From: Coriobacteriia bacterium
GTDB taxonomy: Bacteria > Actinomycetota > Coriobacteriia > WRKU01 > WQUG01
NCBI GenBank assembly: GCA_009779855.1
Contig: WRBC01000008.1
Location: 8,615 to 72,614, forward strand
Length of the DNA: 64,000 nucleotides
Reading direction: 5' to 3'
Each line of letters begins with the position of its first letter. The first letter of the stretch is position 1. Shown here piece after piece: positions 14,842 to 59,592 of the stretch. The position numbers and the translations under genes were made by a program. Under the pieces are notes generated by a model. That model had not been told where the DNA came from and did not search any database. It saw only the letters and a list, made by a program, of their open reading frames with translations.

Positions 14842-14884
14842 ATCTTAGATATTCGAACTTAAATATAGGGCTGGGCTAGATAGC

Positions 14885-15451
14885 ATTTCTGCAAAATTAT
14901 TCATAATTTCTGGTCCATCAGGGGTAGGTAAAGGTACCTTACTCGAAAGGGTTCTTGAGCGCAGGACAGATGCGTGGTTTTCTGTGTCTGCTACTACCCG
15001 AAAGCCGCGCCCAAAAGAGGCGGATGGTGTCCACTATCGCTTTGTTACCCGTGAGCAGTTTGAAAATTGGATTGCTGCGGGTGGATTATTGGAGTGGGCA
15101 CAAGTGCATGGGGGCGAATACTACGGAACTCCTCGCGAACCTGTTCAGGATCAGCTCAATCAGGGCAATAGTGTTTTTCTAGATATTGACACACAAGGCG
15201 CACTTCAGGTAATGGATGCTATGCCAGAAGCCGTTTCGATCTTCGTCGAACCACCTACAATTGGTGAACTAGAAAAACGTCTGAAAGGACGAGGAACAGA
15301 GAGTCCAGAGCAGATTGAGGGACGCATTGCTATCGCGGAGCATGAAATCAAACAAAAGATGCGCTATAATTATCAGCTTGTGAACGATGATCTTGACGTG
15401 GCCACTGAAGAGCTTTGTCGCATCATTACAGCAGAAGAGGCACAAGAATAG
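14885..15451 (+). CDS. gmk: Guanylate kinase
   Basis: P-loop IISGPSGVGKGT followed by GMP-binding motifs. No ATG/GTG/TTG is present in frame before the P-loop, so the start is probably a rare ATT/ATA or the position is uncertain. Confidence 0.75.
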   Translation: MSAKLFIISGPSGVGKGTLLERVLERRTDAWFSVSATTRKPRPKEADGVHYRFVTREQFENWIAAGGLLEWAQVHGGEYYGTPREPVQDQLNQGNSVFLDIDTQGALQVMDAMPEAVSIFVEPPTIGELEKRLKGRGTESPEQIEGRIAIAEHEIKQKMRYNYQLVNDDLDVATEELCRIITAEEAQE

Positions 15452-25518: not shown

Positions 25519-26160
25519 ATGGCAGACGAGAAAAAAACAACTGCTGCAGCTGAAAAGGCTACCGAAGAAAAGAAGCCTGCTGCAAAGAAGACCGCAGCTA
25601 AGAAGGCTCCTGCTAAAAAGACAGCAGCAGAAGAAAAGAAGCCAGCAGCGAAAAAGACTCCTGTTAAGAAGGCTGCCCCTAAAAAGGTGGCTGCAAAACC
25701 AGCAGCTAAGAAGGCTCCTGCTAAACCTGCAGCGAAAAAAGTCACTAAGCCAAAGTTGGATTTACCAAAGCCTAGCGTTAGCTACAGTGGTACTGGGCGT
25801 CGTAAAAACGCGGTTGCTCGTGTTCGCATTTTCCCAGGTACGGGCAAAATATATGCCAACGGCAAAGAAGGTATGGAATATTTTGGTCGTCAAGCACTGA
25901 TTAATTACATTAATGTACCTTTCAAGGCAGTTGACGTAAATGGCCAATTTGATGTGATTGCTTTACTTCATGGTGGCGGAATCAGTGGGCAAGCTGGCGC
26001 ACTGCGTTTGGGTATTGCACGCGCACTACTAGAGGTAAGCGAAGAGCACCGTGCAGAACTGAAGAAGGCAGGACTCTTGCGTCGTGACCCACGTATGGTC
26101 GAACGTAAGAAGTACGGTCTAAAGAAAGCACGTAAGCGCCCACAGTTTAGTAAGCGCTAG
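25519..26160 (+). CDS. rpsI: 30S ribosomal protein S9 with ~85-aa N-terminal AKKA-repeat (histone H1-like) extension
   Basis: C-terminal 130 aa are a canonical S9 ([14 protein letters not shown]...[16 protein letters not shown]). The N-terminus is K/A/P-rich repeats ([14 protein letters not shown]...). Confidence 0.85.
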
Positions 26161-46491: not shown

Positions 46492-48804
46492 GTGAGGAGA
46501 CAAGTTATGTTCTTGCGTCTGAAGAAATTCATTTACCTAATTGCACTAGCCCTTCTTATTAGCGTACTTGTTCCTGCGGCGGCTTTTGCAGATACCTATG
46601 GTCCTTTTACGGTAACAAGCTCCACAGGAGCGACTCCTGCCGGGGTAACGTGGAATTTCCCTGTAGCTGGCATGCTTACTATCACTAATACAACTGATAC
46701 GTTGACTATATCGACCACTGCTCCTGCATCCGATCAGTGGATTACTGTGGCCCCTGCTGGCGGAGGAACTACAAGCCTGGTGTTAGACGGTCTTGACATT
46801 ACGACTACTACCTCTGGTTATAATGCGCTTACCGTTATTGGGGGAACGCTTGATCTTACCCTTGCGGCAGGCTCAACCAATACTCTTGATGCTGGTTTTA
46901 CCAGCACAACCGAAGGGTTTCATGGGGGACTTACGCTCTACAATCAGGCTAACCTGGTCATTGGGGGCGAGGGAAGTTTATATACAAAGTCTTATTTTAG
47001 TGCTGCTATTGGTGCTGGTTATGCTAGCTCCACCTTTCCGCTTGCGGCAGTCTATCCTGGTACTACTGCTGGTCAAGCCCTAGGTGGGAATATTACTATC
47101 AATGAGGGAACAATAACTGCGACGGCTGTACTATCAGGTGCGGGTATTGGCGGTGGATATGCACTTGCGAGTGGGTATTCACGCGTCTCTAGAATAGGTG
47201 ATATCACCATCAATGGGGGAACTATAGCCGCCAGAGGTTATGGAGGCGCAGGGATCGGTGCGGGATATTCTTCTTCGGCGGGAAACATCCTTATTGCTGG
47301 CGGCTCTATCGATTCGCGCGATGTGGGAGGGACACCTGGTGCAGGTATTGGTGCAGGTACTGCCGGTCTGGCTCCTTATGAAAATGCAAACGCTGAAAGC
47401 CTTACTATTACTGGTGGGACCCTTTATGCGGCAGGAGGGCCCAATGGCGGCGCAGGCATTGGTTCTGGTTACACTTTTGTAGGTAGTGGCACTGCCACAC
47501 TAGGCTCTGTCCTTATCACGGGTGGCACAGTCATAGCCTCAGCGGGCAATTCTGGTGCTGATGATATTGGAGTAAGTACTTCAAGCACTAATAGTCCTGC
47601 ACCATCCAGCATAACTATCACGGGTGGTTCAGTACATCCCCTGAATAATCGCGTTGCCCCGCAACCTACTAATGGTACAGAAGATGTTTTTCTTAATAGT
47701 CTAACGCTAGGGGATCCACCCTCTGCTTCAGATACGCTCATATCAGCAGGAAGCATCAACGGAGTCGCCTGCACAACTAGCGTAAGTCCTACGCCTCCGG
47801 TCTACGGAATTAATTCAGTGTATACAGACGATATATCAGTAATCTACCCCTGGCTTCCTGCAGTAACAGGGGAGGAAACAGTTATCATGAGGATAGCAGG
47901 TCAGCCCCTTGCCTATGTCAACACGTTTGAACGAGTGGACGCACACATTATTGAGACGCTTTATTTGACAAGCCTCAACGTTCCCAATGCTTTTATAGAT
48001 CCCGACCCAGTAAATGGGGTACGCATCACCAATAATCCCAGAGTTACTATTACAGGGCTTGATGAGGCAGTTGGCTCAGAAAGCTTAACACTGCATTATT
48101 ATTTGGATGGAAGCTCTGCGCAGGAGGTCTCGCAGTTAGGTTCGCCTTTTTCTGTGACCCTTCCCGAAGGCATGCGTGCGGTAACTTTTTGGGCAACAAA
48201 TCCCTCAGGTGGATCTTCGGAAAGAATTACAAGAAGATACCTTGTAGATTTGACGGCGCCTGTTACTGTGGCAAGTCAAAGAGGAGGTACCTACACTGAG
48301 GTGATTAGTCTCACCTTGAATGCTTCTGACCCCAGTGCGCCTGATGGCAGTGCTGGTTCAGGCGTGGATAGAATCTATTACTCTTTGGTTCGTAATGGTG
48401 GCTTAGCAGAAGTAAGTAGTATGGCGACGCAGTCTCTTCCTGCGAATCTCTACACTGCGGGACAGTGGATTGTGCTTGACGCAAGTGGGACTTACACCTT
48501 GTCCTTTTTTGCCGTGGACCGGGCGGGAAATAGGGAACAAGTAGTCACAGAAACCTATGTAGTGGACTTAGCAGAAGATAATTCTAATGTCACACCTTCA
48601 CCTGGTGCTGATGCTGGTGGCGACACAACATCTACTGTCGCAACTTCTTCACCAAAGACGGGAGACAGCGCAACAATTCTTCCCCTTGCGGTGGCTATGG
48701 TAGCGGGAAGTATTGCGATAACTATAGCGGTGACTTTGTACCGAACACGGGAAAAATCCGTATATAATAATACTTATGAAAATCGTGGGCAATTATACGT
48801 ATAG
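46492..48804 (+). CDS. Secreted Gly-rich beta-helical repeat cell-surface protein with C-terminal SPKTGD sorting-like signal
   Basis: Signal peptide. ~8 degenerate repeats of GxAGIGAGY...ITIxGGTI, then a domain with VDRAGN-type motifs. C-terminus is SPKTGDSAT + TM helix + YRTREKS. Confidence 0.6.
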   Translation: MRRQVMFLRLKKFIYLIALALLISVLVPAAAFADTYGPFTVTSSTGATPAGVTWNFPVAGMLTITNTTDTLTISTTAPASDQWITVAPAGGGTTSLVLDGLDITTTTSGYNALTVIGGTLDLTLAAGSTNTLDAGFTSTTEGFHGGLTLYNQANLVIGGEGSLYTKSYFSAAIGAGYASSTFPLAAVYPGTTAGQALGGNITINEGTITATAVLSGAGIGGGYALASGYSRVSRIGDITINGGTIAARGYGGAGIGAGYSSSAGNILIAGGSIDSRDVGGTPGAGIGAGTAGLAPYENANAESLTITGGTLYAAGGPNGGAGIGSGYTFVGSGTATLGSVLITGGTVIASAGNSGADDIGVSTSSTNSPAPSSITITGGSVHPLNNRVAPQPTNGTEDVFLNSLTLGDPPSASDTLISAGSINGVACTTSVSPTPPVYGINSVYTDDISVIYPWLPAVTGEETVIMRIAGQPLAYVNTFERVDAHIIETLYLTSLNVPNAFIDPDPVNGVRITNNPRVTITGLDEAVGSESLTLHYYLDGSSAQEVSQLGSPFSVTLPEGMRAVTFWATNPSGGSSERITRRYLVDLTAPVTVASQRGGTYTEVISLTLNASDPSAPDGSAGSGVDRIYYSLVRNGGLAEVSSMATQSLPANLYTAGQWIVLDASGTYTLSFFAVDRAGNREQVVTETYVVDLAEDNSNVTPSPGADAGGDTTSTVATSSPKTGDSATILPLAVAMVAGSIAITIAVTLYRTREKSVYNNTYENRGQLYV

Positions 48805-48835: not shown

Positions 48836-50014
48836 ATGCTTGTTTTGGCGTTGGTGTTTACAAGTGCGCCTATGCTCTACGCTACTCCAGAAAACACTAC
48901 TGCAACTGAGAATGCTCAGACAGAACAGGCTTCGCCAGGTGCGGGCTCTATTACTACTGACCTTGCTCCTGAAATTCAGCGCCCAGTAGAACTGGACGTT
49001 TCAGCCGCTGATACGGAAGAAGCTCGTGAGCTTCTGGCTCGCGCAACTCCAGCGCAGCGTGCAGAACTTGAAGAATTTTATGCCCAGCTAGATGAAATTG
49101 ACCGCGAGACAGAGATCGCCGTTGAAGAATACAATGCAGCAAGAATGCGCTTAGATAACGTTACTGGCTCTATTGAGGCTTCAGAGCAAGATATCGCTGT
49201 CCTAGAGCAAGCTTATCTGGCGCAGGCAAATCGCCTGGGCAATCGTGCCGTTGAAATTTATCGTGGCAGCAGAGCAGACATGTTGTTGATTATGATTTTT
49301 GAAGCAGAATCTTTTCAGGACCTACTTTCGCGTATAGAAATTATTAACCAATTGGTGTCTTCAGATTCTGATCTTATGTCTAGGATTCGAGACCAAAGGT
49401 CCCGCTTGGAAGCAATTACCCAACAGTTAAGCCTGGATGAAAGTGAGGCTGCGAGCCTAGAGTTTGAAATGCGTGCTCGCATGATAGAGGTAACTGCTCG
49501 CAATGAGGATCGCAAGCAGGAATTGCGTGACCAGAACATTACTCTGCTGGAATTGTTTGAAGCAGAGCAACTTCGGCGCGCAATTGCAGAACAAGAGCTC
49601 GCTCGCTCTGTAGATGGAGGGGACCACAGTGAGATTGTCGCTGTTCCAGGTTCACCGGTAGAAACTGCAATGGCATTGCGTGGCATTCCTTATGTCTGGG
49701 GCGGGGCCTCCAGAGATGGTTTTGATTGCTCTGGACTGATGCGGTTTGTGTTTTCACAGCATGGGGTCGACCTTCCCCATCATTCAGGAACTCAAGTATT
49801 GCATGGTCAACGGGTTATGGGTGATTTGCAACCAGGAGACCTTATCTTTTTTGGTACGCCTATTCATCATGTGGGTATGTACGTAGGGGGAGGGTATTTC
49901 ATCCATTCGCCCCGCACAGGCGAGGTAGTAAGTTTAAGATCCTTAGCAAGCAGAAGTGACATGGTGGCCGCCAGAAGAATTGATTGGCAACCCAGAGTAG
50001 GAGCCCCCAGATAA
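48836..50014 (+). CDS. RipA-like secreted NlpC/P60 peptidoglycan endopeptidase with N-terminal coiled-coil
   Basis: Signal peptide, a long coiled-coil and a C-terminal NlpC/P60 domain (GIPYVWGGASRDGFDCSGLMRFVF...H...HVGMYVG). The start is chosen at the first Met that gives a signal peptide. Confidence 0.75.
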   Translation: MLVLALVFTSAPMLYATPENTTATENAQTEQASPGAGSITTDLAPEIQRPVELDVSAADTEEARELLARATPAQRAELEEFYAQLDEIDRETEIAVEEYNAARMRLDNVTGSIEASEQDIAVLEQAYLAQANRLGNRAVEIYRGSRADMLLIMIFEAESFQDLLSRIEIINQLVSSDSDLMSRIRDQRSRLEAITQQLSLDESEAASLEFEMRARMIEVTARNEDRKQELRDQNITLLELFEAEQLRRAIAEQELARSVDGGDHSEIVAVPGSPVETAMALRGIPYVWGGASRDGFDCSGLMRFVFSQHGVDLPHHSGTQVLHGQRVMGDLQPGDLIFFGTPIHHVGMYVGGGYFIHSPRTGEVVSLRSLASRSDMVAARRIDWQPRVGAPR

Positions 50015-50736
50015 TGAAGAATACTGCGCCTGAAGCAAAGCTTAAGCAGCAAGACAGTTTACCGCAGATACAATCGGCACAGTCTGTGACACGGCAAAGT
50101 TGGATGTTGCCAGGATTAGTGGCTCTACTGGGTTTTATAGCAAGTATTGCTCTTGTGATGAGGTTTCCACCTGTAGTTGAACTGGAGGAACTTGTTCGAC
50201 TTCCTGTTTTCCACGGAGCTTTGACCTGGGCTAGTTTCGTTCTTTTTCTCCTGCTGGGAATCCTGGGTCTTTGGGCGTACTTTGGAAAAAGTGCAAAGAC
50301 ATACAGTTGGTCTCAGGCTATTCGTTATAGTGTTATAGGTCTGTGGATACTAAATTTTGCTATGGGACTTACCATTGCAGCCTTATTTTGGGATTTTAGC
50401 GCATCTTCACAGTCTCCAATTTTATATTTAGCTATGGAGCCCCGCATTCGGCTGCAGTTTGCTGTTTCAATATTAGGTATCGCAGTCCTAATTCTTCCAA
50501 CAATTTTTGAGCGCTGGCGTACTTTGGCGCTTTTTGATGGAGTTTATGGTTTTGGAACGCTTGTTTTGACCTATGTTGCTCTAAGTTTTGGTCAAAGCCT
50601 GCACCCGTCTAATCCTGTTATGTCCTCTGAAGAAGGGATTCTTCGCTACACTTTTTTATTGGTGTGCTTTGCGTTGGTTGTCATGTGCGCAGGTATTGTT
50701 ATGCTGGTACGCGCACTAATTGCACAACAAACATAA
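50014..50736 (+). CDS. Hypothetical polytopic membrane protein
   Basis: ~7 TM helices and no known motif. Its start overlaps the ripA-like stop by 1 nt (taATG). Confidence 0.4.
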   Translation: MKNTAPEAKLKQQDSLPQIQSAQSVTRQSWMLPGLVALLGFIASIALVMRFPPVVELEELVRLPVFHGALTWASFVLFLLLGILGLWAYFGKSAKTYSWSQAIRYSVIGLWILNFAMGLTIAALFWDFSASSQSPILYLAMEPRIRLQFAVSILGIAVLILPTIFERWRTLALFDGVYGFGTLVLTYVALSFGQSLHPSNPVMSSEEGILRYTFLLVCFALVVMCAGIVMLVRALIAQQT

Positions 50737-52628: not shown

Positions 52629-55600
52629 ATGGGTACTTCACGTAGAGCGCTTTTGTCGCTATGTATTGTTCTGGCTATGCTTTTTATTAGTGCACCTTTC
52701 TTGCTAGGTGCTGCTTTTAACGAAGAGGCTGACAACCCTCCAGAAGAAGCCCCCGTGATTACCAGTCTGCTCGAGTTATTTCAGAGCGCAGAGACTACGC
52801 AAAGTGTAGAGGCGACAGAGGATGCCTCTACGATTAGTGCTTCTGGGGACGGGAAGAGCGATGTCCTACAACCAGGCTTTAGACCTCCAATGAGCCCAGA
52901 TGCCTTTTCTGCGTCAGGTGTTTTCGGAGACGAGATGACCCTTGGCCCACTGGGTGGGGGTCCCCTTGCTGGCATTCTTAGTGCGGGTACCGCAATTCAG
53001 CCTTATGCTGCAGCAACAAGCTCTAATCTAACTGATTTTGTTGAAGTCGTTCAGATGTATGATATGAGCACAGATCCTCCTACATTGGTTCCAAGTGGAG
53101 GGGCCACGATACTTGGAGGAAACTACAGATTTGCGATTACCTTTGCAGAGACCTCTCAACTGCAGATGGCGTACGACACCAACGGGTTCCTGACGTACCA
53201 ACTTCCTGCTGACCTGACTATTTTAAACCCAGTCGAGCAGACTCCTTTCTACAGTCCTGTTAATGGTGACAGGATTATTGGATGGTACACAATCAGTACC
53301 AGTGGTCTTGTAGAAATGTGGTTCGATAATGTCGACATGAGCGGGAATCCAACTCCTGGCGGAATTAACCTTATTGATTATTATGCAAACGTAAGTATTA
53401 CCCTTAATGTGTTTGCACAATTGACGGGTGGCTCTGATGGAAACATTGATTTTGGCGGCGGGGTCATAGTAGAAATTGCCCCTCCAGTGAAGCCAGATCC
53501 TTCACTTACTATGCACAAAGCTTCCCGTTATGTACCAACTCCAGGGCCGGGAACTTTGCCAGAGCGAATCGAATACATGCTCACCATTACTGCTCTAGGC
53601 GGTCCGATAGATAATGTCTTTGTACTGGATACCCCAACCATTGATGCGGGATCAGGACCTGTTAGTTTTGCAGATTCATCCGTTTTTAATAGTTTCAGGT
53701 ACTATTTTGATGGTGATCCGCACTTTACGCCTTTTACCCCCAGTTGGCTGCCAGGCTCTGATCTTATATGGACACATTCCTTTGGTGACTTTGTTCTGGA
53801 AGAGGGGCACAGTATTACCATTAGATATTACGTGGATATTCCTGCGCTGGTAAGTTTAAATATTGGCACTGATCAGCCACTTGATGGCATGAGTGAAATT
53901 ATCTACAACTTCTTCGTGCTTAATACGGCGTATGTTGCAGGTCAAGACTACGGAACTGGGCTTGCAGTTCCCCCTGTATTTGACTCGACAACGGACAATG
54001 TAAGAAAAGATTTTGTATTAAATAAAACAGGGGAATACATTAGCAATACCAACCAGATACAGTGGTCAGTTACTGTTGGGGACGGACAATCAACCGTGCT
54101 TAACGGAGGAACGATTACAGACATCATTGATAGTCGTCTGACCTTGGTTGATGATAGCGAAATCACCATTCAATTCATTGATCAAAGCGGCACTATACAG
54201 TCCTTCACGGCTACCGAACTTGCAGCTATGACACCTCCGCTCTATGAGCGAGACCCCATACCTGCTGGGCAGACAGATCCTATTAATGGGTTTACCGTTA
54301 CCGTACCACCCAATGCGATTCCATGGGCAGCGTTTTATCAAGTGATTATCACCTATACTACAGAAATTGATCCAGGCGATATTCCGCAGCAAGGTGAGCC
54401 CCCAATCGTTTTTGGAAATGATATTTACTTTCAGTTTCCTGACGGAGGGCCAGGGATTGAGGGTGGTACACAGGTTCCTATAATTGCTGACAGAGTGGAT
54501 ATGAACAAGACAACTTCAGGCATTTGTGGTCGCCCAGATCTAAGCCCTGCTGAGGCAGGACCTAATGGGGAACTTTATTACGTGGACTATGTTATTACCG
54601 TTGACGTTCCTGCTGGTTTACAAGGGCAACCCCTCTACCTGTATGACAATCTGGGTCTTTCCCCAGGGGGACTAGGAGTAGCCAATGTTCCTGTCCTTAC
54701 TGATGTTAGTGTAGAGGGTTCAGAGGTTGCTAGCATACCTTTGCAGAATACGTCTGCAATTCCTTATAGTACCCAGCCGACTGTTAATGCTTGGAAGATG
54801 TTCTTTGGTGCGACAGGAGACACCGAACCTATTGTCTGGGGATGGCAATACAATGACGAAATAACGCTTACTGTCGAATACAGAATATGGTTAGATCAGG
54901 CAGCTGTTAATGGACTGAGATCTGGGAGGCAGCTACAAAATACTGCCTATTTAATCAATGGACTAGGTTCTCCGAATGTTGGCGCGCTGGGTAATGCAGT
55001 GGGGAGTATCTACGTAACTGATCTTTGGCCTATTATAAAAGGTGTTCAAAAGACGGCAAATCCAGCACTGTTTAACTATACTGTTGACATTAAAGGCAAT
55101 TACTCTACTAGGGCAAGCTCTCTTCTTGAAGGGAAGGCTCCGCTATTTACTGATACTTTTGACTCAAGGCTTGAATATGTGCCTAATTCGTTTTATATCG
55201 TAAACACAAATACCCCTGGCTATTATTATGTACCCAACAGCGATGTTACTGCTTTAAGTGGCACTTTTACTGTGGCACTTGCGGATGGAAATTGGACCCA
55301 GTACCAGGGACAATTTCCTAGCGGCAGCAATCCACAACCAGCCACGGGTGAATGGTTCGGGGCAAACTATACGTATGAAGCTCATTACCAGCTTATTGTG
55401 AGTGAAGCTTACCGTGAGACCGCAGAAACAATCAGCCTTGCCAACACAGCAGCGATTGAAGTCAATCCAGGAGAGTGCAAATTTGAGGCATCTCAAGCGG
55501 TTCCTTATGTTCAAACGCGCATGGACAAGTCTATGAACCCGACAGCACCTGGTTCTGACCTTGTTGATGTCGAAATTGTTATCAATCCAGATGGATCAAT

Positions 55601-55694
55601 AGAATTTTCCGATCCAAGCTCTACCGCTTCACCACCGACCACGATTACAGCAAGCGACTTTTTAAGAAACCTAGCCTTTTTGTGGATACCGTAA
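52629..55694 (+). CDS. Large secreted adhesin, N-terminal 1021-aa segment (interrupted by frameshift)
   Basis: Signal peptide. The long beta-rich sequence has no enzymatic motifs. The reading frame continues in +2 after a T5 homopolymer at 55677-55681. Confidence 0.6.
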   Translation: MGTSRRALLSLCIVLAMLFISAPFLLGAAFNEEADNPPEEAPVITSLLELFQSAETTQSVEATEDASTISASGDGKSDVLQPGFRPPMSPDAFSASGVFGDEMTLGPLGGGPLAGILSAGTAIQPYAAATSSNLTDFVEVVQMYDMSTDPPTLVPSGGATILGGNYRFAITFAETSQLQMAYDTNGFLTYQLPADLTILNPVEQTPFYSPVNGDRIIGWYTISTSGLVEMWFDNVDMSGNPTPGGINLIDYYANVSITLNVFAQLTGGSDGNIDFGGGVIVEIAPPVKPDPSLTMHKASRYVPTPGPGTLPERIEYMLTITALGGPIDNVFVLDTPTIDAGSGPVSFADSSVFNSFRYYFDGDPHFTPFTPSWLPGSDLIWTHSFGDFVLEEGHSITIRYYVDIPALVSLNIGTDQPLDGMSEIIYNFFVLNTAYVAGQDYGTGLAVPPVFDSTTDNVRKDFVLNKTGEYISNTNQIQWSVTVGDGQSTVLNGGTITDIIDSRLTLVDDSEITIQFIDQSGTIQSFTATELAAMTPPLYERDPIPAGQTDPINGFTVTVPPNAIPWAAFYQVIITYTTEIDPGDIPQQGEPPIVFGNDIYFQFPDGGPGIEGGTQVPIIADRVDMNKTTSGICGRPDLSPAEAGPNGELYYVDYVITVDVPAGLQGQPLYLYDNLGLSPGGLGVANVPVLTDVSVEGSEVASIPLQNTSAIPYSTQPTVNAWKMFFGATGDTEPIVWGWQYNDEITLTVEYRIWLDQAAVNGLRSGRQLQNTAYLINGLGSPNVGALGNAVGSIYVTDLWPIIKGVQKTANPALFNYTVDIKGNYSTRASSLLEGKAPLFTDTFDSRLEYVPNSFYIVNTNTPGYYYVPNSDVTALSGTFTVALADGNWTQYQGQFPSGSNPQPATGEWFGANYTYEAHYQLIVSEAYRETAETISLANTAAIEVNPGECKFEASQAVPYVQTRMDKSMNPTAPGSDLVDVEIVINPDGSIEFSDPSSTASPPTTITASDFLRNLAFLWIP

Positions 55695-57376
55695 CTTTTT
55701 ACACGCAAACACAGGATCCTGTTACCGGCATTTGGGACGGAGTATGGGTTGCGGTTGGTACCCCGCCAACCAGCATGAACGACCGAACCGAATGGAGTAT
55801 TAATCCTGTTGTGCCGCCTGCGCCCCCTGCAGGGGTTATAGCTGACAGTCAAGTTGATTTTGTTATTCCCAATGGGAAGCCTGTAATGATTACCTATCAG
55901 GTTCGTGTAACGTTGCCGCCAGGTGAGGCAGGCACTATTAGTAATGAGGTTCGCATCTTTGGAGAAACTGCAGAAGACGGCAATAACAATTTTGTAGTTG
56001 ATGGCGGTGGTATCGGGGTTGGTGGTGATAAGGTAAACCTGCGTGTATTTAAAGCAGATCAAGCGGGAAACAATTTGCCAGGTGCGACCTTCAGTCTTTA
56101 TGTGACAGATATTGGGGGTGGACTGTTTGTTCCCCCAGGTGGACTACCCGTAGCAAAGACTGTTATGGGTGCTGGTGGCGAAACTATTGAATTCGCCTTG
56201 GTTGAAGTGGCTGGACCTAGCCCTCCTGCTTTGGTGGACTCAGTAACAACAGATTCGACTGGTATTGCCCTGTTTAGCGACAGTGAATGGCTTACCTCTG
56301 ACGCTAGTTTTGACTTGCTCTATTTGCTTGTAGAAACTGGTGTGCCTGCAGGGTACACTGTGGCCAATGAAAATACCTTCTTTGTGCTTAACCCAGTAAT
56401 TGATAGTGTGACACTTGATGGCCTCAAGGCTCTTTTAGATAGTGAAATTGGCGATAGTCAGGTTGACCGGGCAACAGATTTTGTTCGAGTAGAAAATACT
56501 GCACTGGGCGCTATGACTGTACAGAAGGTATTTGAGCTTCCAGAGGACATTACGGATCTTTTGCTTCGTGAGAACCTAGGAGACTTTGAGCTAGTCATTA
56601 CTGGTCCAGAAAGCCTTGAGACAACCCTTGGGATACAGGCAATCCTTGATAATCCTGGCGGTATTCTAATTGAAGACCTTGTTCCGGGTACTTATACCAT
56701 TGCTGAGCGCAGTGCAGAGATTGCGAGTCTTGTGCTTACTACTGATCCGCCCTTGCCTTATACCTATGAAGTGGAACCTGCTTCTACTGGGGCAGTGGCA
56801 ATTGTAATTACCAATACTTATACGCTGGAACCGCCACCACCTGTTCCTGTGGACTTGCGTTTGACTAAGAGCATAGAGGGCCTTTCTGATGCGCAAATCA
56901 GGGAGCACTTACAAGATATCCAGATTGTAGTTGATGGTCCAGGAAGAAGCTCTGACAGAATCTTTACGCTGCAAGATATTCTTGCAGGTCCCCTGGTGAT
57001 TGAAAACGCAGATCCTGGTCGTTATGAGATTAGTGAACGAAACGCTGAGGTTGATGGGTTTAGCCTAGTTACAAGTCCAACCTTACCTCATGCGTTTGAG
57101 CTTTTGCCTAATGATGCTGGATATGTAGAAATTGCTCTTTATAACATATATACGCCTAGGCCACCTGGGGACAACAATCCTGGGGATGATAACCTACCAG
57201 GTGACTCTCCAGGGTCATCTGATTCATCTAGAAATCCTGGAAGAGGGCCAATCACAGGTGATTGGTTACAGGGGATTAATTTGATAATCTTACTGCTAGC
57301 TGCATTGACAGTAGCAATAAGTGCTAGAGAATTGCATAAGGATAAAGCAAAGGGTGCACAGGATGAAGGTGACTAA
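55682..57376 (+). CDS. Large adhesin, C-terminal 564-aa segment with SpaA/CnaB-type domains and GPITGD sorting-like signal
   Basis: VNLRVFKADQAGNNLPGATFSLYVTD is the canonical CnaB/SpaA-isopeptide (prealbumin-like) domain start. Repeated TxxERxAEIxGxxLxT modules follow. C-terminus is PITGD + TM helix + RELHKDKAK. Confidence 0.6.
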   Translation: MDTVTFYTQTQDPVTGIWDGVWVAVGTPPTSMNDRTEWSINPVVPPAPPAGVIADSQVDFVIPNGKPVMITYQVRVTLPPGEAGTISNEVRIFGETAEDGNNNFVVDGGGIGVGGDKVNLRVFKADQAGNNLPGATFSLYVTDIGGGLFVPPGGLPVAKTVMGAGGETIEFALVEVAGPSPPALVDSVTTDSTGIALFSDSEWLTSDASFDLLYLLVETGVPAGYTVANENTFFVLNPVIDSVTLDGLKALLDSEIGDSQVDRATDFVRVENTALGAMTVQKVFELPEDITDLLLRENLGDFELVITGPESLETTLGIQAILDNPGGILIEDLVPGTYTIAERSAEIASLVLTTDPPLPYTYEVEPASTGAVAIVITNTYTLEPPPPVPVDLRLTKSIEGLSDAQIREHLQDIQIVVDGPGRSSDRIFTLQDILAGPLVIENADPGRYEISERNAEVDGFSLVTSPTLPHAFELLPNDAGYVEIALYNIYTPRPPGDNNPGDDNLPGDSPGSSDSSRNPGRGPITGDWLQGINLIILLLAALTVAISARELHKDKAKGAQDEGD

Positions 57377-57412: not shown

Positions 57413-57976
57413 CTATTCCTCATCAAGTATTTCTTGTAGCGCATGTTCTATAGTGTCGAAGTTGATTGCTCCCATAAAGCGTGAACTGATAATTCCGTCA
57501 GAGTCGATAAAAAAGGTTTCTGGAACACCTGTCACACCATAGGCGAGCGCGCCTTCACTTGCCTCGTCAAAGTATATGGGAAAGGTGAAGCCTTCTTCAT
57601 CCATGTAGGCACGTGCGACCTCAATAGGTTCGTCGACGTTTAACACGATAAATTTTACATCATTTCCGTACTGCTCAAAGGCTTGTTGAAAATGAGGTTT
57701 TTCCATACGACAGGGAGGGCACCAGCTGGCCCAGAAGTTAAGAACTACAGGGGTTCCTTCAAAGTCGCTTAAGAACTGTCGGTGTCCTTGTTCACTTAAA
57801 AATTCAAAATCAGGAGCAGCGCCGTTCACCATTTCTGCCTGAGCATCATCGGGCAAGAGGTCTGCAATATCATAATTTGGCAATACCCAAAATTGCAGTG
57901 CAAGGGCACCTGCTATTACGACGGCCAATGCACCACCTAAAATACCTGCAATAGTAAGGTTTTTTCTTTTGTCCAT
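57413..57976 (-). CDS. Membrane-anchored thioredoxin-like thiol-disulfide oxidoreductase (TlpA/ResA family)
   Basis: N-terminal TM anchor and a WCPPC active site (VVLNFWASWCPPCRME). Confidence 0.8.
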   Translation of the reverse strand: MDKRKNLTIAGILGGALAVVIAGALALQFWVLPNYDIADLLPDDAQAEMVNGAAPDFEFLSEQGHRQFLSDFEGTPVVLNFWASWCPPCRMEKPHFQQAFEQYGNDVKFIVLNVDEPIEVARAYMDEEGFTFPIYFDEASEGALAYGVTGVPETFFIDSDGIISSRFMGAINFDTIEHALQEILDEE

Positions 57977-58007
57977 ATGCCTATTTGCCCCTTACTGTGG
58001 TAGTCGC

Positions 58008-58718
58008 TTAGAGATTTGTTAAAAAGCCTGTTAGTACGAAGGCATATCCGCTCATTATGAGTATGCCCATCAGTATCAAGAGTCCACCAGATACTATTCT
58101 GATAGTGCGATAATTGCGCTTGATGAAGTCAAAGGCACCCTTGAGTGAATTAATGAGAAGTGCACTTATTACAAAAGGAATACCTAAGCCTAGCGAGTAG
58201 AATAGTAACAGAAGGGCTCCTATGTACCAAGTTCCACTTGCTGCTGCTAGAAGCAGCGCTGATCCCAAAAAGGCGCTGATACAGGGGGTATGACTAACGG
58301 AAAATATTACCCCTAAAAAGAAGGATTTAATACCGTCTTTTCTTCCCGAAGATTCTCCTGTGGACCTATTAGCTAGTCGAGAAAAGACTCTGATATCGGG
58401 AAGCTTGAAAAGACCCATATAGCCCAGACCAAAAAGAATGACGATACTTCCGGCAACAATATTTACTATGGTTTGGTACTGCGTGATAAAGGCACCCAAG
58501 GTTCCTGCAAATACTCCTAAGAGTACAAATACTGAGGTGAAACCTGCCATAAAGAACAGTGCACTTGCTAGTACTCGCAGGCGATGTTTCCGTGGATTAG
58601 AGCCATCATCATCTGTTGCCACGCCTGCAAAGTAGCTTGCAAATATTGGCAGAAGAGGAAGTAAGCAGGGCGAAATAAAGGTGAGTATGCCTTCAAGGAA
58701 GGTGAGTGCGTACAGCAT
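58008..58718 (-). CDS. ccdA: Cytochrome c-type biogenesis / thiol-disulfide transporter CcdA (DsbD core)
   Basis: 6 TM helices with conserved Cys in TM1 (FISPCLLPLLP) and TM4 (HTPCISA). Confidence 0.8.
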   Translation of the reverse strand: MLYALTFLEGILTFISPCLLPLLPIFASYFAGVATDDDGSNPRKHRLRVLASALFFMAGFTSVFVLLGVFAGTLGAFITQYQTIVNIVAGSIVILFGLGYMGLFKLPDIRVFSRLANRSTGESSGRKDGIKSFFLGVIFSVSHTPCISAFLGSALLLAAASGTWYIGALLLLFYSLGLGIPFVISALLINSLKGAFDFIKRNYRTIRIVSGGLLILMGILIMSGYAFVLTGFLTNL

Positions 58719-58893
58719 GCTAGCTATCTTACCTTATATGGAGACGCTTTACTATAGGAATGGTTCGCAAGTTTAAAAGATAGTTGGATTTGCATTTGTG
58801 GTAAAACATTGTTACACTGATATTGCAAATGAAACATTGTTCTACCGTTTTGCAGGTTGTCAGCACACGATGAACGAGGACTAGGAGTGAATC

Positions 58894-59592
58894 GTGATAG
58901 AAATATCTAAAAAAGATCTACTAGAAAAAACAGGCATATCGTATGGACAGCTTTATCGCTGGAAGCGTGAAAGGCTTATCCCAGAAGAGTGGTTTGTAAA
59001 AAGATCTGCAGTTACTGGGCAGGAAACGTACTTTCCTCGTGAGCAGATGCTTGATCGTATTGAGGCAATCCTTGATTTAAAAGAAGACCACAGCTTAGAA
59101 GAAATCCGTAACATTCTTGCATCAGAACATAGCATGCTTTTAGGACGAAAAAGGATAGAGAGTCTGGGGATACTTCCTAATGGTCTATTCGACCGTGTCG
59201 CTTACTTAAAGGACAAGAAAGAGTTTAGGCGGGGAGAGCTTGCTTTCATAGTGATGATTAACGAGGTTGCTGCAGAAAAAAAATTGCCGGACTCAGAGCA
59301 TGACGATTTGCTCGAAAGAAGCCTGCCCTTACTAGAAAAAGAAAGAGCGGCAAGCAGTGTCGTATTTTTGATTAGCGCAGAAGGCAGACTTTACGTTGTC
59401 TTGGCTAGCGAAGGAAAGCAGCCCCTGTTTGACAGCGGTATAGAAATTATACGAACAGCATCCCTAGTTGACCTAGTTGCAAAGCTAAAGATTGGACGCT
59501 TTGACGGAAATGATGAAGAGGCCACAGGAAGTGATGGCGATGGCAAAGAAGATGCAAACACACCAAAAATTGTAAATATCACCGCAAGATAA
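58894..59592 (+). CDS. MerR-like HTH (DUF4004-like) domain protein
   Basis: The N-terminus [27 protein letters not shown] resembles a MerR-type HTH. The C-terminal ~150 aa are uncharacterised with an acidic tail. Confidence 0.4.

What the first reader, a model, noticed from the sequence alone, without database searches (positions are those of the whole stretch)
55660..55700. Single-base frameshift in a T5 homopolymer splits a ~1585-aa SpaA/CnaB-type adhesin into two ORFs
ORF 52629-55694 ends ...ASDFLRNLAFLWIP*. ORF 55682-57376 is in the +2 frame and remains open for ~38 codons upstream of its GTG. Inserting one T into the run ctttttg (55677-55681) would read ...NLAFFVDTVTFYTQTQDPVTG... and fuse both into one protein. 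That protein would have a signal peptide, a long beta-rich N-region, CnaB/SpaA isopeptide-type domains and a C-terminal sorting-like signal. This is either a homopolymer sequencing error, a recent pseudogenisation, or slipped-strand phase variation of a surface adhesin.
Basis: seen in the sequence. Interest (0 to 1): 0.55.

Follow-up and report, generated by a model that had tools for sequence, protein, structure and literature searches.

The report
One-base deletion splits a surface-protein gene
A large cell-surface adhesin gene of an uncultured gut Coriobacteriia bacterium is broken in two by the loss of a single C in this strain only, which is an ordinary recent gene inactivation and not a switchable (phase-variable) site.

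Summary
The two ORFs, their frames, the 38 open codons upstream of the GTG and the T5 run are all as described. All 24 distant homologues (34-47% identity) and a 75%-identical orthologue read straight through the junction, so the ancestral gene was a single gene of 1582 aa.

The lesion is not in the T5 run. An intact allele from a sister strain, 99.1% identical over 14.7 kb, reads GCC CTT TTT GTG (A-L-F-V). The window reads GCC-TT TTT GTG. One C of a CCC run is missing, and T5 is identical in both alleles.

The split allele is base-for-base identical in five assembled contigs from several sequencing runs, built by two assembly pipelines. The intact allele, with the same local sequence context, assembles as CCC in three contigs built by three pipelines. 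An assembly or sequencing artefact is therefore unlikely.

The two states lie on haplotypes that differ at 61 codons of the gene. The gene holds no homopolymer longer than 5, and T5 occurs 84 times in the window. There is no slippery heptamer, no downstream RNA structure and no ribosome-binding site for ORF2.

Best reading: a recent, strain-specific frameshift that truncates a sortase-type CnaA/CnaB (pilin-fold) surface protein and removes its wall anchor. Interest is low.

The parts
52629..57376 (+). Whole disrupted gene. It corresponds to a 1582-aa surface protein in the intact allele (P0031, and P0027 with a later called start).
   Evidence: The intact allele occupies the same position between argS and the redoxin gene in L003, L004 and L014.
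52629..55694 (+). ORF1, the 5' fragment. It is 1021 aa, the last 4 residues (LWIP) are out of frame, and it ends at TAA 55692-55694. NCBI annotates it as FWE26_05815 / MCL2871121.1.
   Evidence: The SD-like AAGGAG lies 5 nt upstream of the ATG.
52629..52718 (+). Signal-peptide-like N-terminus (MGTSRRALLSLCIVLAMLFISAPFLLGAAF): a basic n-region, a hydrophobic core and a small-residue site.
   Evidence: Read from the sequence. Homologues have comparable N-termini. No signal-peptide predictor was run.
54015..54392 (+). Collagen_bind-like (CnaA-type) region, ORF1 aa 463-588. The match is below threshold.
   Evidence: Pfam PF05737 scores 26.8 bits against a gathering score of 27.5.
54051..55751 (+). 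Divergent tract between the split and intact haplotypes. It holds 60 of the 61 differing codons of the gene and contains the frameshift.
   Evidence: Over the whole gene, 40 differing codons are synonymous and 21 non-synonymous.
55521..55963 (+). Single beta-sandwich domain that the frameshift cuts in the middle. The invariant Lys and Asp lie on the ORF1 side and the invariant Asn on the ORF2 side.
   Evidence: The alignment across 24 homologues has no gap at the junction. Invariant columns are K42, D85 and N181. The AlphaFold model has pLDDT of about 58-85 per 10-residue block over this domain, with strands on both sides of the junction.
55675..55676 (+). Site of the lesion: CC here and CCC in the intact allele. 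The lost C is the first base of the Leu codon CTT (GCC CTT TTT GTG became GCC TT TTT GTG).
   Evidence: DNA alignment A1. The 75%-identical orthologue has CTC TTT = L-F at the same codons.
55677..55681 (+). The T5 run named in the finding. Its length is the same in the split and intact alleles.
55682..57376 (+). ORF2, the 3' fragment (564 aa from the GTG). NCBI annotates it as FWE26_05820 / MCL2871122.1. It has no signal peptide and no SD upstream of the GTG.
   Evidence: The upstream sequence aagaaacctagccttttt lacks a GGAG-type motif.
56039..56389 (+). SpaA (prealbumin-like / CnaB-type) domain, ORF2 aa 120-236.
   Evidence: Pfam PF17802 scores 38.1 bits against a gathering score of 23.1 and 32.5 bits on the intact protein. 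The profile hits the SpaD and GBS80 pilins in the PDB.
57245..57373 (+). C-terminal sorting-like signal: GPITGD, a hydrophobic segment (WLQGINLIILLLAALTVAISA) and a basic tail (RELHKDKAK...).
   Evidence: Complete homologues carry xPxTG[DE]-type motifs plus a TM segment and a basic tail.

Best explanation
This is a real, recent, strain-specific one-base deletion. A C was lost from a CCC run, so the Leu codon CTT became TT, at window position 55675/55676. The gene it disrupts encodes a 1582-aa sortase-type surface protein built of CnaA/CnaB pilin-fold domains, in an uncultured Coriobacteriia bacterium.

Shown here: translation from the ATG at 52629 runs into the -1-base frame and stops after four wrong residues.

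Inferred: the product would be a secreted 1021-aa fragment. It ends inside a beta-sandwich domain and lacks the SpaA domain, the two C-terminal repeat domains and the GPITGD wall-sorting signal, so it cannot be anchored to the cell wall. The 3' part (ORF2) has no signal peptide and no ribosome-binding site of its own, and is probably an untranslated remnant. The gene is effectively a young pseudogene, or at best an unanchored truncation, in this lineage. A sister lineage keeps it intact.
For: (1) One ancestral gene. 24 homologues of 1092-2217 aa cover 58-90% of the fused query (at least 80% in 22 of them), and all 24 align across the junction without a gap.

(2) The same 90% cluster holds intact 1582-aa (P0031) and 1566-aa (P0027, NCBI FWC99_04980) versions.

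(3) The DNA alignment puts the indel in CCC versus CC, with T5 unchanged. The 75%-identical orthologue also encodes L-F there.

(4) The split allele is 100% identical to the window in five contigs: ENA ERZ27257297, Logan SRR10512952, Logan SRR5215140, ENA ERZ27257304, and the JGI contig of 86,704 bases that encodes P0029/P0030.

(5) The intact allele comes from ENA ERZ27257300, Logan SRR10512955 and JGI Ga0123355, and these three are identical to each other. The sequence of at least 35 bases on either side of the site is the same in both alleles, so a context-driven error would hit both.

(6) The states are linked to haplotypes: 61 differing codons, 40 synonymous and 21 non-synonymous, which points to purifying selection until recently. 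In the ORF2 part there are only 3 synonymous changes, no non-synonymous change and no second lesion, so the event is young.

(7) ORF1 has AAGGAG upstream. ORF2 has nothing comparable.

(8) None of the other adjacent ORF pairs checked in the window is a split gene.
Against: - No reads were available, so a minority intact variant within the same sample cannot be excluded.
- The read sets that carry the split allele may come from related samples of one host or colony, so they are technical rather than biological replicates.
- ORF2 shows no decay at all. That is also what a sequencing artefact or a functional arrangement would give.
- Loss of function is inferred from architecture and was not measured.
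Confidence: 0.8

Rival explanations
1. Sequencing or assembly artefact: the genome really has CCC (or T6) and the gene is intact.
For: The source is a metagenome-assembled genome (names). ORF2 carries no further damage. Indels next to homopolymers are a classic error type (general knowledge).
Against: The split allele is identical in five contigs from at least three read sets, built by two assembly pipelines. The contig names (k141_...) indicate a short-read de Bruijn assembly, where consensus indel errors at a C2/T5 site are very rare (general knowledge). The intact haplotype has the same sequence for at least 35 bases on either side and assembles as CCC in three contigs from three pipelines. 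No other split genes were found among the suspicious ORF pairs in the window.
Confidence: 0.06
2. Slipped-strand (replication-slippage) phase variation: the C/T tract switches the adhesin ON and OFF in the population, as in the bifidobacterial pilus G-tract switch.
For: Both states exist in closely related bacteria from what look like sister samples. The target is a surface adhesin, a typical class of phase-variable gene. A precedent exists in another Actinomycetota gut commensal (PMC9187656).
Against: - The variable run is C3/C2 and T5 does not vary.
- Described switches use long tracts, for example G-tracts of 8-10 nt in the Bifidobacterium bifidum rows of the table in PMC9187656 and an 8C to 7C change in mga (PMC11868660).
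- No run longer than 5 exists in the gene, and T5 occurs 84 times in the window.
- ON and OFF differ by 61 linked codon changes, so they are different strains and not one clone switching.
- Every assembly of the split haplotype is OFF and every assembly of the other haplotype is ON.
- The tract is absent from the 75%-identical orthologue, which has GTT CTC TTT GTT.
Confidence: 0.05
3. Programmed recoding: a -1 ribosomal frameshift or transcriptional slippage on C CUU UUU G / U5 makes some full-length anchored protein alongside a secreted truncated form.
For: The required shift is -1 and the site contains U5. Low-level slippage on U-rich tetramers is conceivable (general knowledge). The ORF2 frame is intact.
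Against: - The 0-frame heptamer is C UUU UUG, not X XXY YYZ.
- There is no stimulatory structure downstream (z = 0.44; 128 of 200 shuffles fold as well).
- There is no SD-like element upstream.
- Transcriptional slippage is typically exploited at runs of about 9 A or T (PMC1088944).
- The frameshift is not conserved. All 24 homologues, the 75% orthologue and the sister allele are in frame.
Confidence: 0.03
4. A functional two-gene arrangement: ORF1 acts as a secreted adhesin or binding protein, and ORF2 is translated separately by coupling at the 13-nt overlap.
For: The ORFs overlap by 13 nt (55682-55694), a geometry compatible with translational coupling. NCBI annotates both as proteins.
Against: The break falls inside one folded domain and separates conserved K/D from N. 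ORF2 has no signal peptide, yet it carries a wall-sorting signal that is useless without export. It has no SD. No homologue is organised this way.
Confidence: 0.03

Closest known systems
[quoted passage not shown] 2022, PMC9187656)
   Same: A gut-associated member of the Actinomycetota. A sortase-type, pilin-fold surface protein gene appears as two ORFs because of a one-base frame change. Restoring one base gives the full-length anchored protein.
   Different: In that system the frame change lies in a long G homopolymer. The paper's table lists tracts of 8-10 nt in B. bifidum strains, and length heterogeneity was measured within a clone. Here the change is CCC to CC next to an invariant T5, the gene has no long tract, and the two states belong to different haplotypes.
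Gram-positive pilins and MSCRAMM-like adhesins built of CnaA/CnaB isopeptide domains (L. rhamnosus SpaD 5yu5/5z0z, S. agalactiae GBS80 3pf2/3pg2 and SAK_1440 4uzg, S. pneumoniae RrgB 2x9x)
   Same: A Pfam SpaA domain scores above threshold. The profile hits SpaD (E = 1.3e-5) and GBS80 (E = 8.6e-4). The predicted fold matches pilins (Foldseek E = 2.3e-8 to 2.6e-4, probability 0.93-1.0). Lys, Asp/Glu and Asn positions are conserved. The protein has a signal peptide and a C-terminal sorting-type signal.
   Different: - The protein is much larger (1582 aa), and most of the N-terminal 900 aa has no family assignment.
- The sorting motif is GPITGD (family-wide xPxTG[DE]), not LPXTG.
- No pilin motif or E-box was looked for.
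- No sortase or pilus operon lies nearby; the neighbours are argS and a redoxin/DsbD pair.
- Sequence identity to solved structures is only 9-14% and global TM-scores are about 0.2.
Transcriptional slippage at 9A/9T runs (T. thermophilus dnaX, IS elements; Baranov et al. 2005, PMC1088944) and -1 programmed ribosomal frameshifting (E. coli dnaX type, A AAA AAG)
   Same: A -1 shift at a U-rich site would join the two frames.
   Different: The run is only 5 nt, against about 9 in the known cases. The heptamer is non-canonical. There is no stimulatory structure and no conservation.

Membership tests
Frameshift pseudogene (recent, lineage-specific) | The reading frame is interrupted relative to intact orthologues, and the halves are collinear with one protein. 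| tested here: met
   All 24 homologues, the 75% orthologue and the 99% sister allele read through.
Frameshift pseudogene (recent, lineage-specific) | The lesion is reproducible in independent data and is not an assembly artefact. | tested here: met
   Five contigs from at least three read sets and two assembly pipelines are 100% identical to the window. Reads themselves were not available.
Frameshift pseudogene (recent, lineage-specific) | The downstream fragment lacks its own expression and export signals. | tested here: met
   There is no SD before the GTG at 55682, whereas ORF1 has AAGGAG. ORF2 has no signal peptide. Promoter-like sites are at chance level, 11 found against 7.7 +/- 2.5 expected.
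Frameshift pseudogene (recent, lineage-specific) | Signs of relaxed selection or further decay. | tested here: not met
   ORF2 differs from the intact allele by 3 synonymous changes only, and there is no second lesion. This means the event is very young, and it keeps the rival explanations alive.
Simple-sequence-repeat phase-variable (contingency) locus | A hypermutable repeat tract longer than composition predicts (homopolymers of about 7-8 or more). | tested here: not met
   The site is C2/C3 plus T5. The longest run in the gene is 5. There are 84 T5 runs in the window. Known switches use 8-10 G or 8C.
Simple-sequence-repeat phase-variable (contingency) locus | Length variation of that tract among close relatives. 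| tested here: not met
   T5 is invariant. Only a single C differs. The 75% orthologue lacks the tract.
Simple-sequence-repeat phase-variable (contingency) locus | Reversible ON/OFF states within one clone or population. | not testable with these tools
   This needs read-level data. At assembly level each haplotype shows only one state.
Programmed -1 ribosomal frameshift / transcriptional slippage | A canonical slippery heptamer X XXY YYZ, or a long A/T run. | tested here: not met
   The 0-frame sequence is C UUU UUG, and the run has 5 U.
Programmed -1 ribosomal frameshift / transcriptional slippage | A stimulatory downstream structure or an upstream SD-like element. | tested here: not met
   The fold of 55670-55790 gives z = 0.44. 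There is no GGAG upstream.
Programmed -1 ribosomal frameshift / transcriptional slippage | Conservation of the two-frame arrangement in homologues. | tested here: not met
   All homologues are in one frame.
Gram-positive CnaA/CnaB (SpaA-type) isopeptide-domain surface protein | A family domain recognised above the curated threshold. | tested here: met
   PF17802 SpaA scores 38.1 and 32.5 bits against a gathering score of 23.1. Collagen_bind is just below threshold (26.8 against 27.5). NCBIfam RrgB_K2N_iso_D2 is below threshold (16.4 against 30).
Gram-positive CnaA/CnaB (SpaA-type) isopeptide-domain surface protein | A pilin-type Ig-like fold. | tested here: met
   Foldseek top hits are all Gram-positive pilins (E = 2.3e-8 to 2.6e-4). 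The profile hits SpaD and GBS80. Caveat: the model has mean pLDDT 68.9 and global TM-scores are about 0.2.
Gram-positive CnaA/CnaB (SpaA-type) isopeptide-domain surface protein | A Lys-Asn isopeptide triad (Lys, catalytic Asp/Glu, Asn). | tested here: inconclusive
   K42, D85 and N181 in the junction domain, and K217 and E311 in the SpaA domain, are invariant in 16 sequences. Bond geometry was not examined.
Sortase-anchored (LPXTG-type) wall protein | A tripartite C-terminal signal: pentapeptide motif, hydrophobic segment and basic tail. | tested here: inconclusive
   The architecture is present, but the motif is GPITGD and not LPXTG. The complete homologues show xPxTG[DE]-type motifs (NPQTGD, SPQTGD, PPKTGD and others). 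No anchor HMM hit was found in Pfam or NCBIfam.
Sortase-anchored (LPXTG-type) wall protein | A cognate sortase encoded nearby. | tested here: not met
   No ORF with a T[LIV]xTC signature exists in the 64-kb window. The rest of the genome was not available.

The most novel reading that the evidence does not exclude
The C2/C3-T5 site could be a short, non-canonical switch or leaky recoding site. In that case the population, or each cell, would make both a released 1021-aa fragment and a wall-anchored full-length adhesin, and the co-occurrence of both alleles in sister gut samples would reflect selection on adhesin ON/OFF state and not just strain drift.
Probability: 0.04. Interest if true: 0.4.

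Novelty: already known. Interest (0 to 1): 0.1.

Why it matters
It matters little beyond annotation. FWE26_05815 and FWE26_05820 should be merged and flagged as one frameshifted gene, with the lesion placed at the CCC run. The case is a useful caution: the nearest homopolymer is not necessarily where a frameshift happened, and a nearly identical intact allele resolves that directly. It also marks an uncharacterised family of very large pilin-fold surface proteins with xPxTG[DE] sorting signals. Named members come from Coriobacteriia and Oscillospiraceae MAGs. One strain has just lost the gene, a small hint that this adhesin is dispensable or counter-selected in some niches.

Tried and rejected
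- Variant B, a repair in the other T5 run (55659-63), also gives a 1582-aa ORF, but it scores 0.8-9 bits lower against all 24 homologues. The intact allele contradicts it.
- Scans of the JGI metagenome and GTDB genome collections with the junction peptide returned only one 75%-identical orthologue, found in both collections as the same record, plus two 32% relatives.
- A literature search for the run accessions and the MAG name found nothing.
- A single-sequence search of the PDB gave no meaningful hit. NCBIfam gave only sub-threshold hits.
- The RNA fold downstream of the site is not better than shuffled sequence.
- The promoter and terminator scan is at chance level.
- A search for a sortase in the window by its TLxTC signature found none.
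- Suspicious adjacent ORF pairs elsewhere in the window were checked as possible further frameshifts. All are separate, complete genes. The guanylate kinase only has an unusual start.
Full report
**Observation**

The sequence is as described:
- ORF1 is 52629-55694 (+, 1021 aa, ending ...NLAFLWIP*).
- ORF2 is 55682-57376 (+, GTG, 564 aa) in the +2 frame. That frame stays open for 38 codons upstream, back to a stop at 55565-55567.
- A T5 run sits at 55677-55681.
- Inserting a T there yields one ORF of 1582 aa.

The stretch in which one extra base would join the frames (55568-55691) also contains a second T5 run (55659-55663) and a T4 run. The sequence alone therefore does not say where the lesion is.

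**One ancestral gene**

A search with the fused protein found ORF1 itself, named 'MAG: hypothetical protein FWE26_05815 [Coriobacteriia bacterium]'. It also found 24 single proteins of 1092-2217 aa at 34-47% identity. They cover 58-90% of the fused query, at least 80% in 22 of them. All 24 align across the junction without a gap. The consensus is ITAxDxLxNL[MA][LMF][FY]xD[TS]V..YTQT.

**Where the lesion is**

The 90%-identity cluster that holds ORF1 and ORF2 also holds two intact versions:
- P0031, 1582 aa, from Logan SRR10512955 and ENA ERZ27257300.
- P0027, 1566 aa, NCBI FWC99_04980, from JGI Ga0123355.

Both read ...DFLRNLALFVDTVTFY.... The DNA alignment shows TAG CCC TTTTT GTG in the intact allele and TAG CC TTTTT GTG in the window. 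The T5 run is unchanged. One C of a CCC run, the first base of the Leu codon CTT, is missing.

A 75%-identical orthologue (Coriobacteriia MAG Emb289P1bin4, WQVS01000092.1) has CTC TTT = L-F at the same two codons.

**Artefact or real**

Contigs carrying the split allele are all 100% identical to the window over their full overlap:
- ENA ERZ27257297 (k141 contig, 86,740 bases).
- Logan SRR10512952.
- Logan SRR5215140.
- ENA ERZ27257304.
- A JGI contig of 86,704 bases, which encodes the same split pair, P0029/P0030.

The intact allele was assembled by ENA, Logan and JGI from another sample, and those three contigs are identical to each other. The sequence of at least 35 bases on either side of the site is identical in both alleles. 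A context-dependent error would therefore affect both. I could not inspect reads, and the samples may be related, so these replicates are technical rather than biological. Other adjacent ORF pairs in the window that looked like possible splits are separate, complete genes.

**Phase variation or strain difference**

Window and intact haplotype are 99.13% identical over 14.7 kb. The differences cluster in two tracts: 54051-55751, inside the gene and containing the frameshift, and about 57500-59500.

Within the gene, 61 codons differ, 40 synonymous and 21 mostly conservative non-synonymous. That implies purifying selection until recently. The ORF2 part shows only 3 synonymous changes and no second lesion. 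So ON and OFF belong to different strains, and the lesion is young.

The gene has no homopolymer longer than 5. T5 occurs 84 times in the window and runs of 5 or more occur about 4 times per kb. Described slippage switches use much longer tracts:
- G-tracts of 8-10 nt in the Bifidobacterium bifidum pilus genes tabulated in PMC9187656.
- 8C to 7C in mga (PMC11868660).
- About 9 A or T for transcriptional slippage (PMC1088944).

**Recoding**

A -1 shift would be needed. The 0-frame sequence is C UUU UUG, which is not X XXY YYZ. The downstream RNA folds no better than shuffled sequence (z = 0.44). There is no SD-like element upstream, and the arrangement is not conserved in any homologue.

ORF1 has AAGGAG 5 nt before its ATG. 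ORF2 has no such signal, and promoter-like matches are at chance level.

**What the protein is**

- Pfam finds a SpaA (prealbumin-like, CnaB-type) domain above threshold. It scores 38.1 bits in ORF2 and 32.5 bits in the intact protein. A Collagen_bind match sits just below threshold.
- A 350-aa segment spanning the junction domain and the SpaA domain was modelled with 16 aligned sequences, giving mean pLDDT 68.9.
- Its best structural matches are all Gram-positive pilins: SAK_1440, LrpA, GBS80, RrgB, SpaD and RrgA. E-values run from 2.3e-8 to 2.6e-4, although global TM-scores are only about 0.2.
- The alignment profile hits SpaD and GBS80 by sequence.
- The frameshift falls between beta-strands of one domain. 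It separates the invariant K42 and D85 (ORF1 side) from N181 (ORF2 side). This is consistent with a CnaA-type Lys/Asp/Asn isopeptide triad, but the bond was not tested.
- The C-terminus is GPITGD, then a hydrophobic segment, then a basic tail. The complete homologues carry xPxTG[DE]-type motifs in the same arrangement.
- Another surface protein 4 kb upstream ends in SPKTGD.
- No sortase is encoded in the window.

**Mechanistic reading**

Shown: translation from 52629 terminates at 55692 after four out-of-frame residues.

Inferred: the product is exported but ends inside a domain and lacks the wall-sorting signal, so it cannot be anchored. ORF2 is a silent remnant.

**Verdict**

This is an ordinary, recent, lineage-specific frameshift in a sortase-type adhesin gene of a MAG. 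The phase-variation and homopolymer-error readings are not supported. Residual uncertainty rests on read-level data that I could not access.

Noticed in passing
window 46492-48804 (+): A 770-aa protein with Beta_helix_3 repeats (33.9 bits) and a C-terminal SPKTGD + TM + basic tail. It is a second sortase-substrate-like surface protein, with the same xPxTGD motif type, 4 kb upstream of the split adhesin.
   Followed up: partly
window 14873-15451 (+): The Pfam match of the guanylate kinase starts at profile position 35 when the ORF is taken from its first ATG/GTG/TTG (14984). The P-loop (ISGPSGVGKGT) lies upstream in the same frame with no canonical start codon before it. This suggests a non-canonical start (ATT, ATA or CTN) and not a frameshift.
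   Followed up: partly
window 54051-55751 and about 57500-59500: Differences between the split and intact haplotypes are confined to two tracts: the adhesin's distal half and the redoxin/DsbD/DUF4004 region. The flanks differ at only a few scattered sites. This looks like recombination imports or local hypervariability.
   Followed up: partly
window 25519-26160 (+): Ribosomal protein S9 carries an N-terminal extension of about 90 aa with a sub-threshold histone H1-like (HC2) match. The S9 domain itself occupies only residues 93-213.
   Followed up: no
L010/L013 (WQVS01000092.1) and L014 (Ga0123355_10000146): The intact allele and a 75%-identical orthologue from a different Coriobacteriia MAG (Emb289P1bin4) come from the same JGI metagenome (Ga0123355). 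Two related species with this adhesin therefore coexist in one sample. The sample name hints at a termite-gut origin, which I could not verify.
   Followed up: no
window 49984-50736 (+): A 250-aa ORF between the NlpC/P60 hydrolase and argS has no Pfam family. It is conserved in position in both haplotypes.
   Followed up: no
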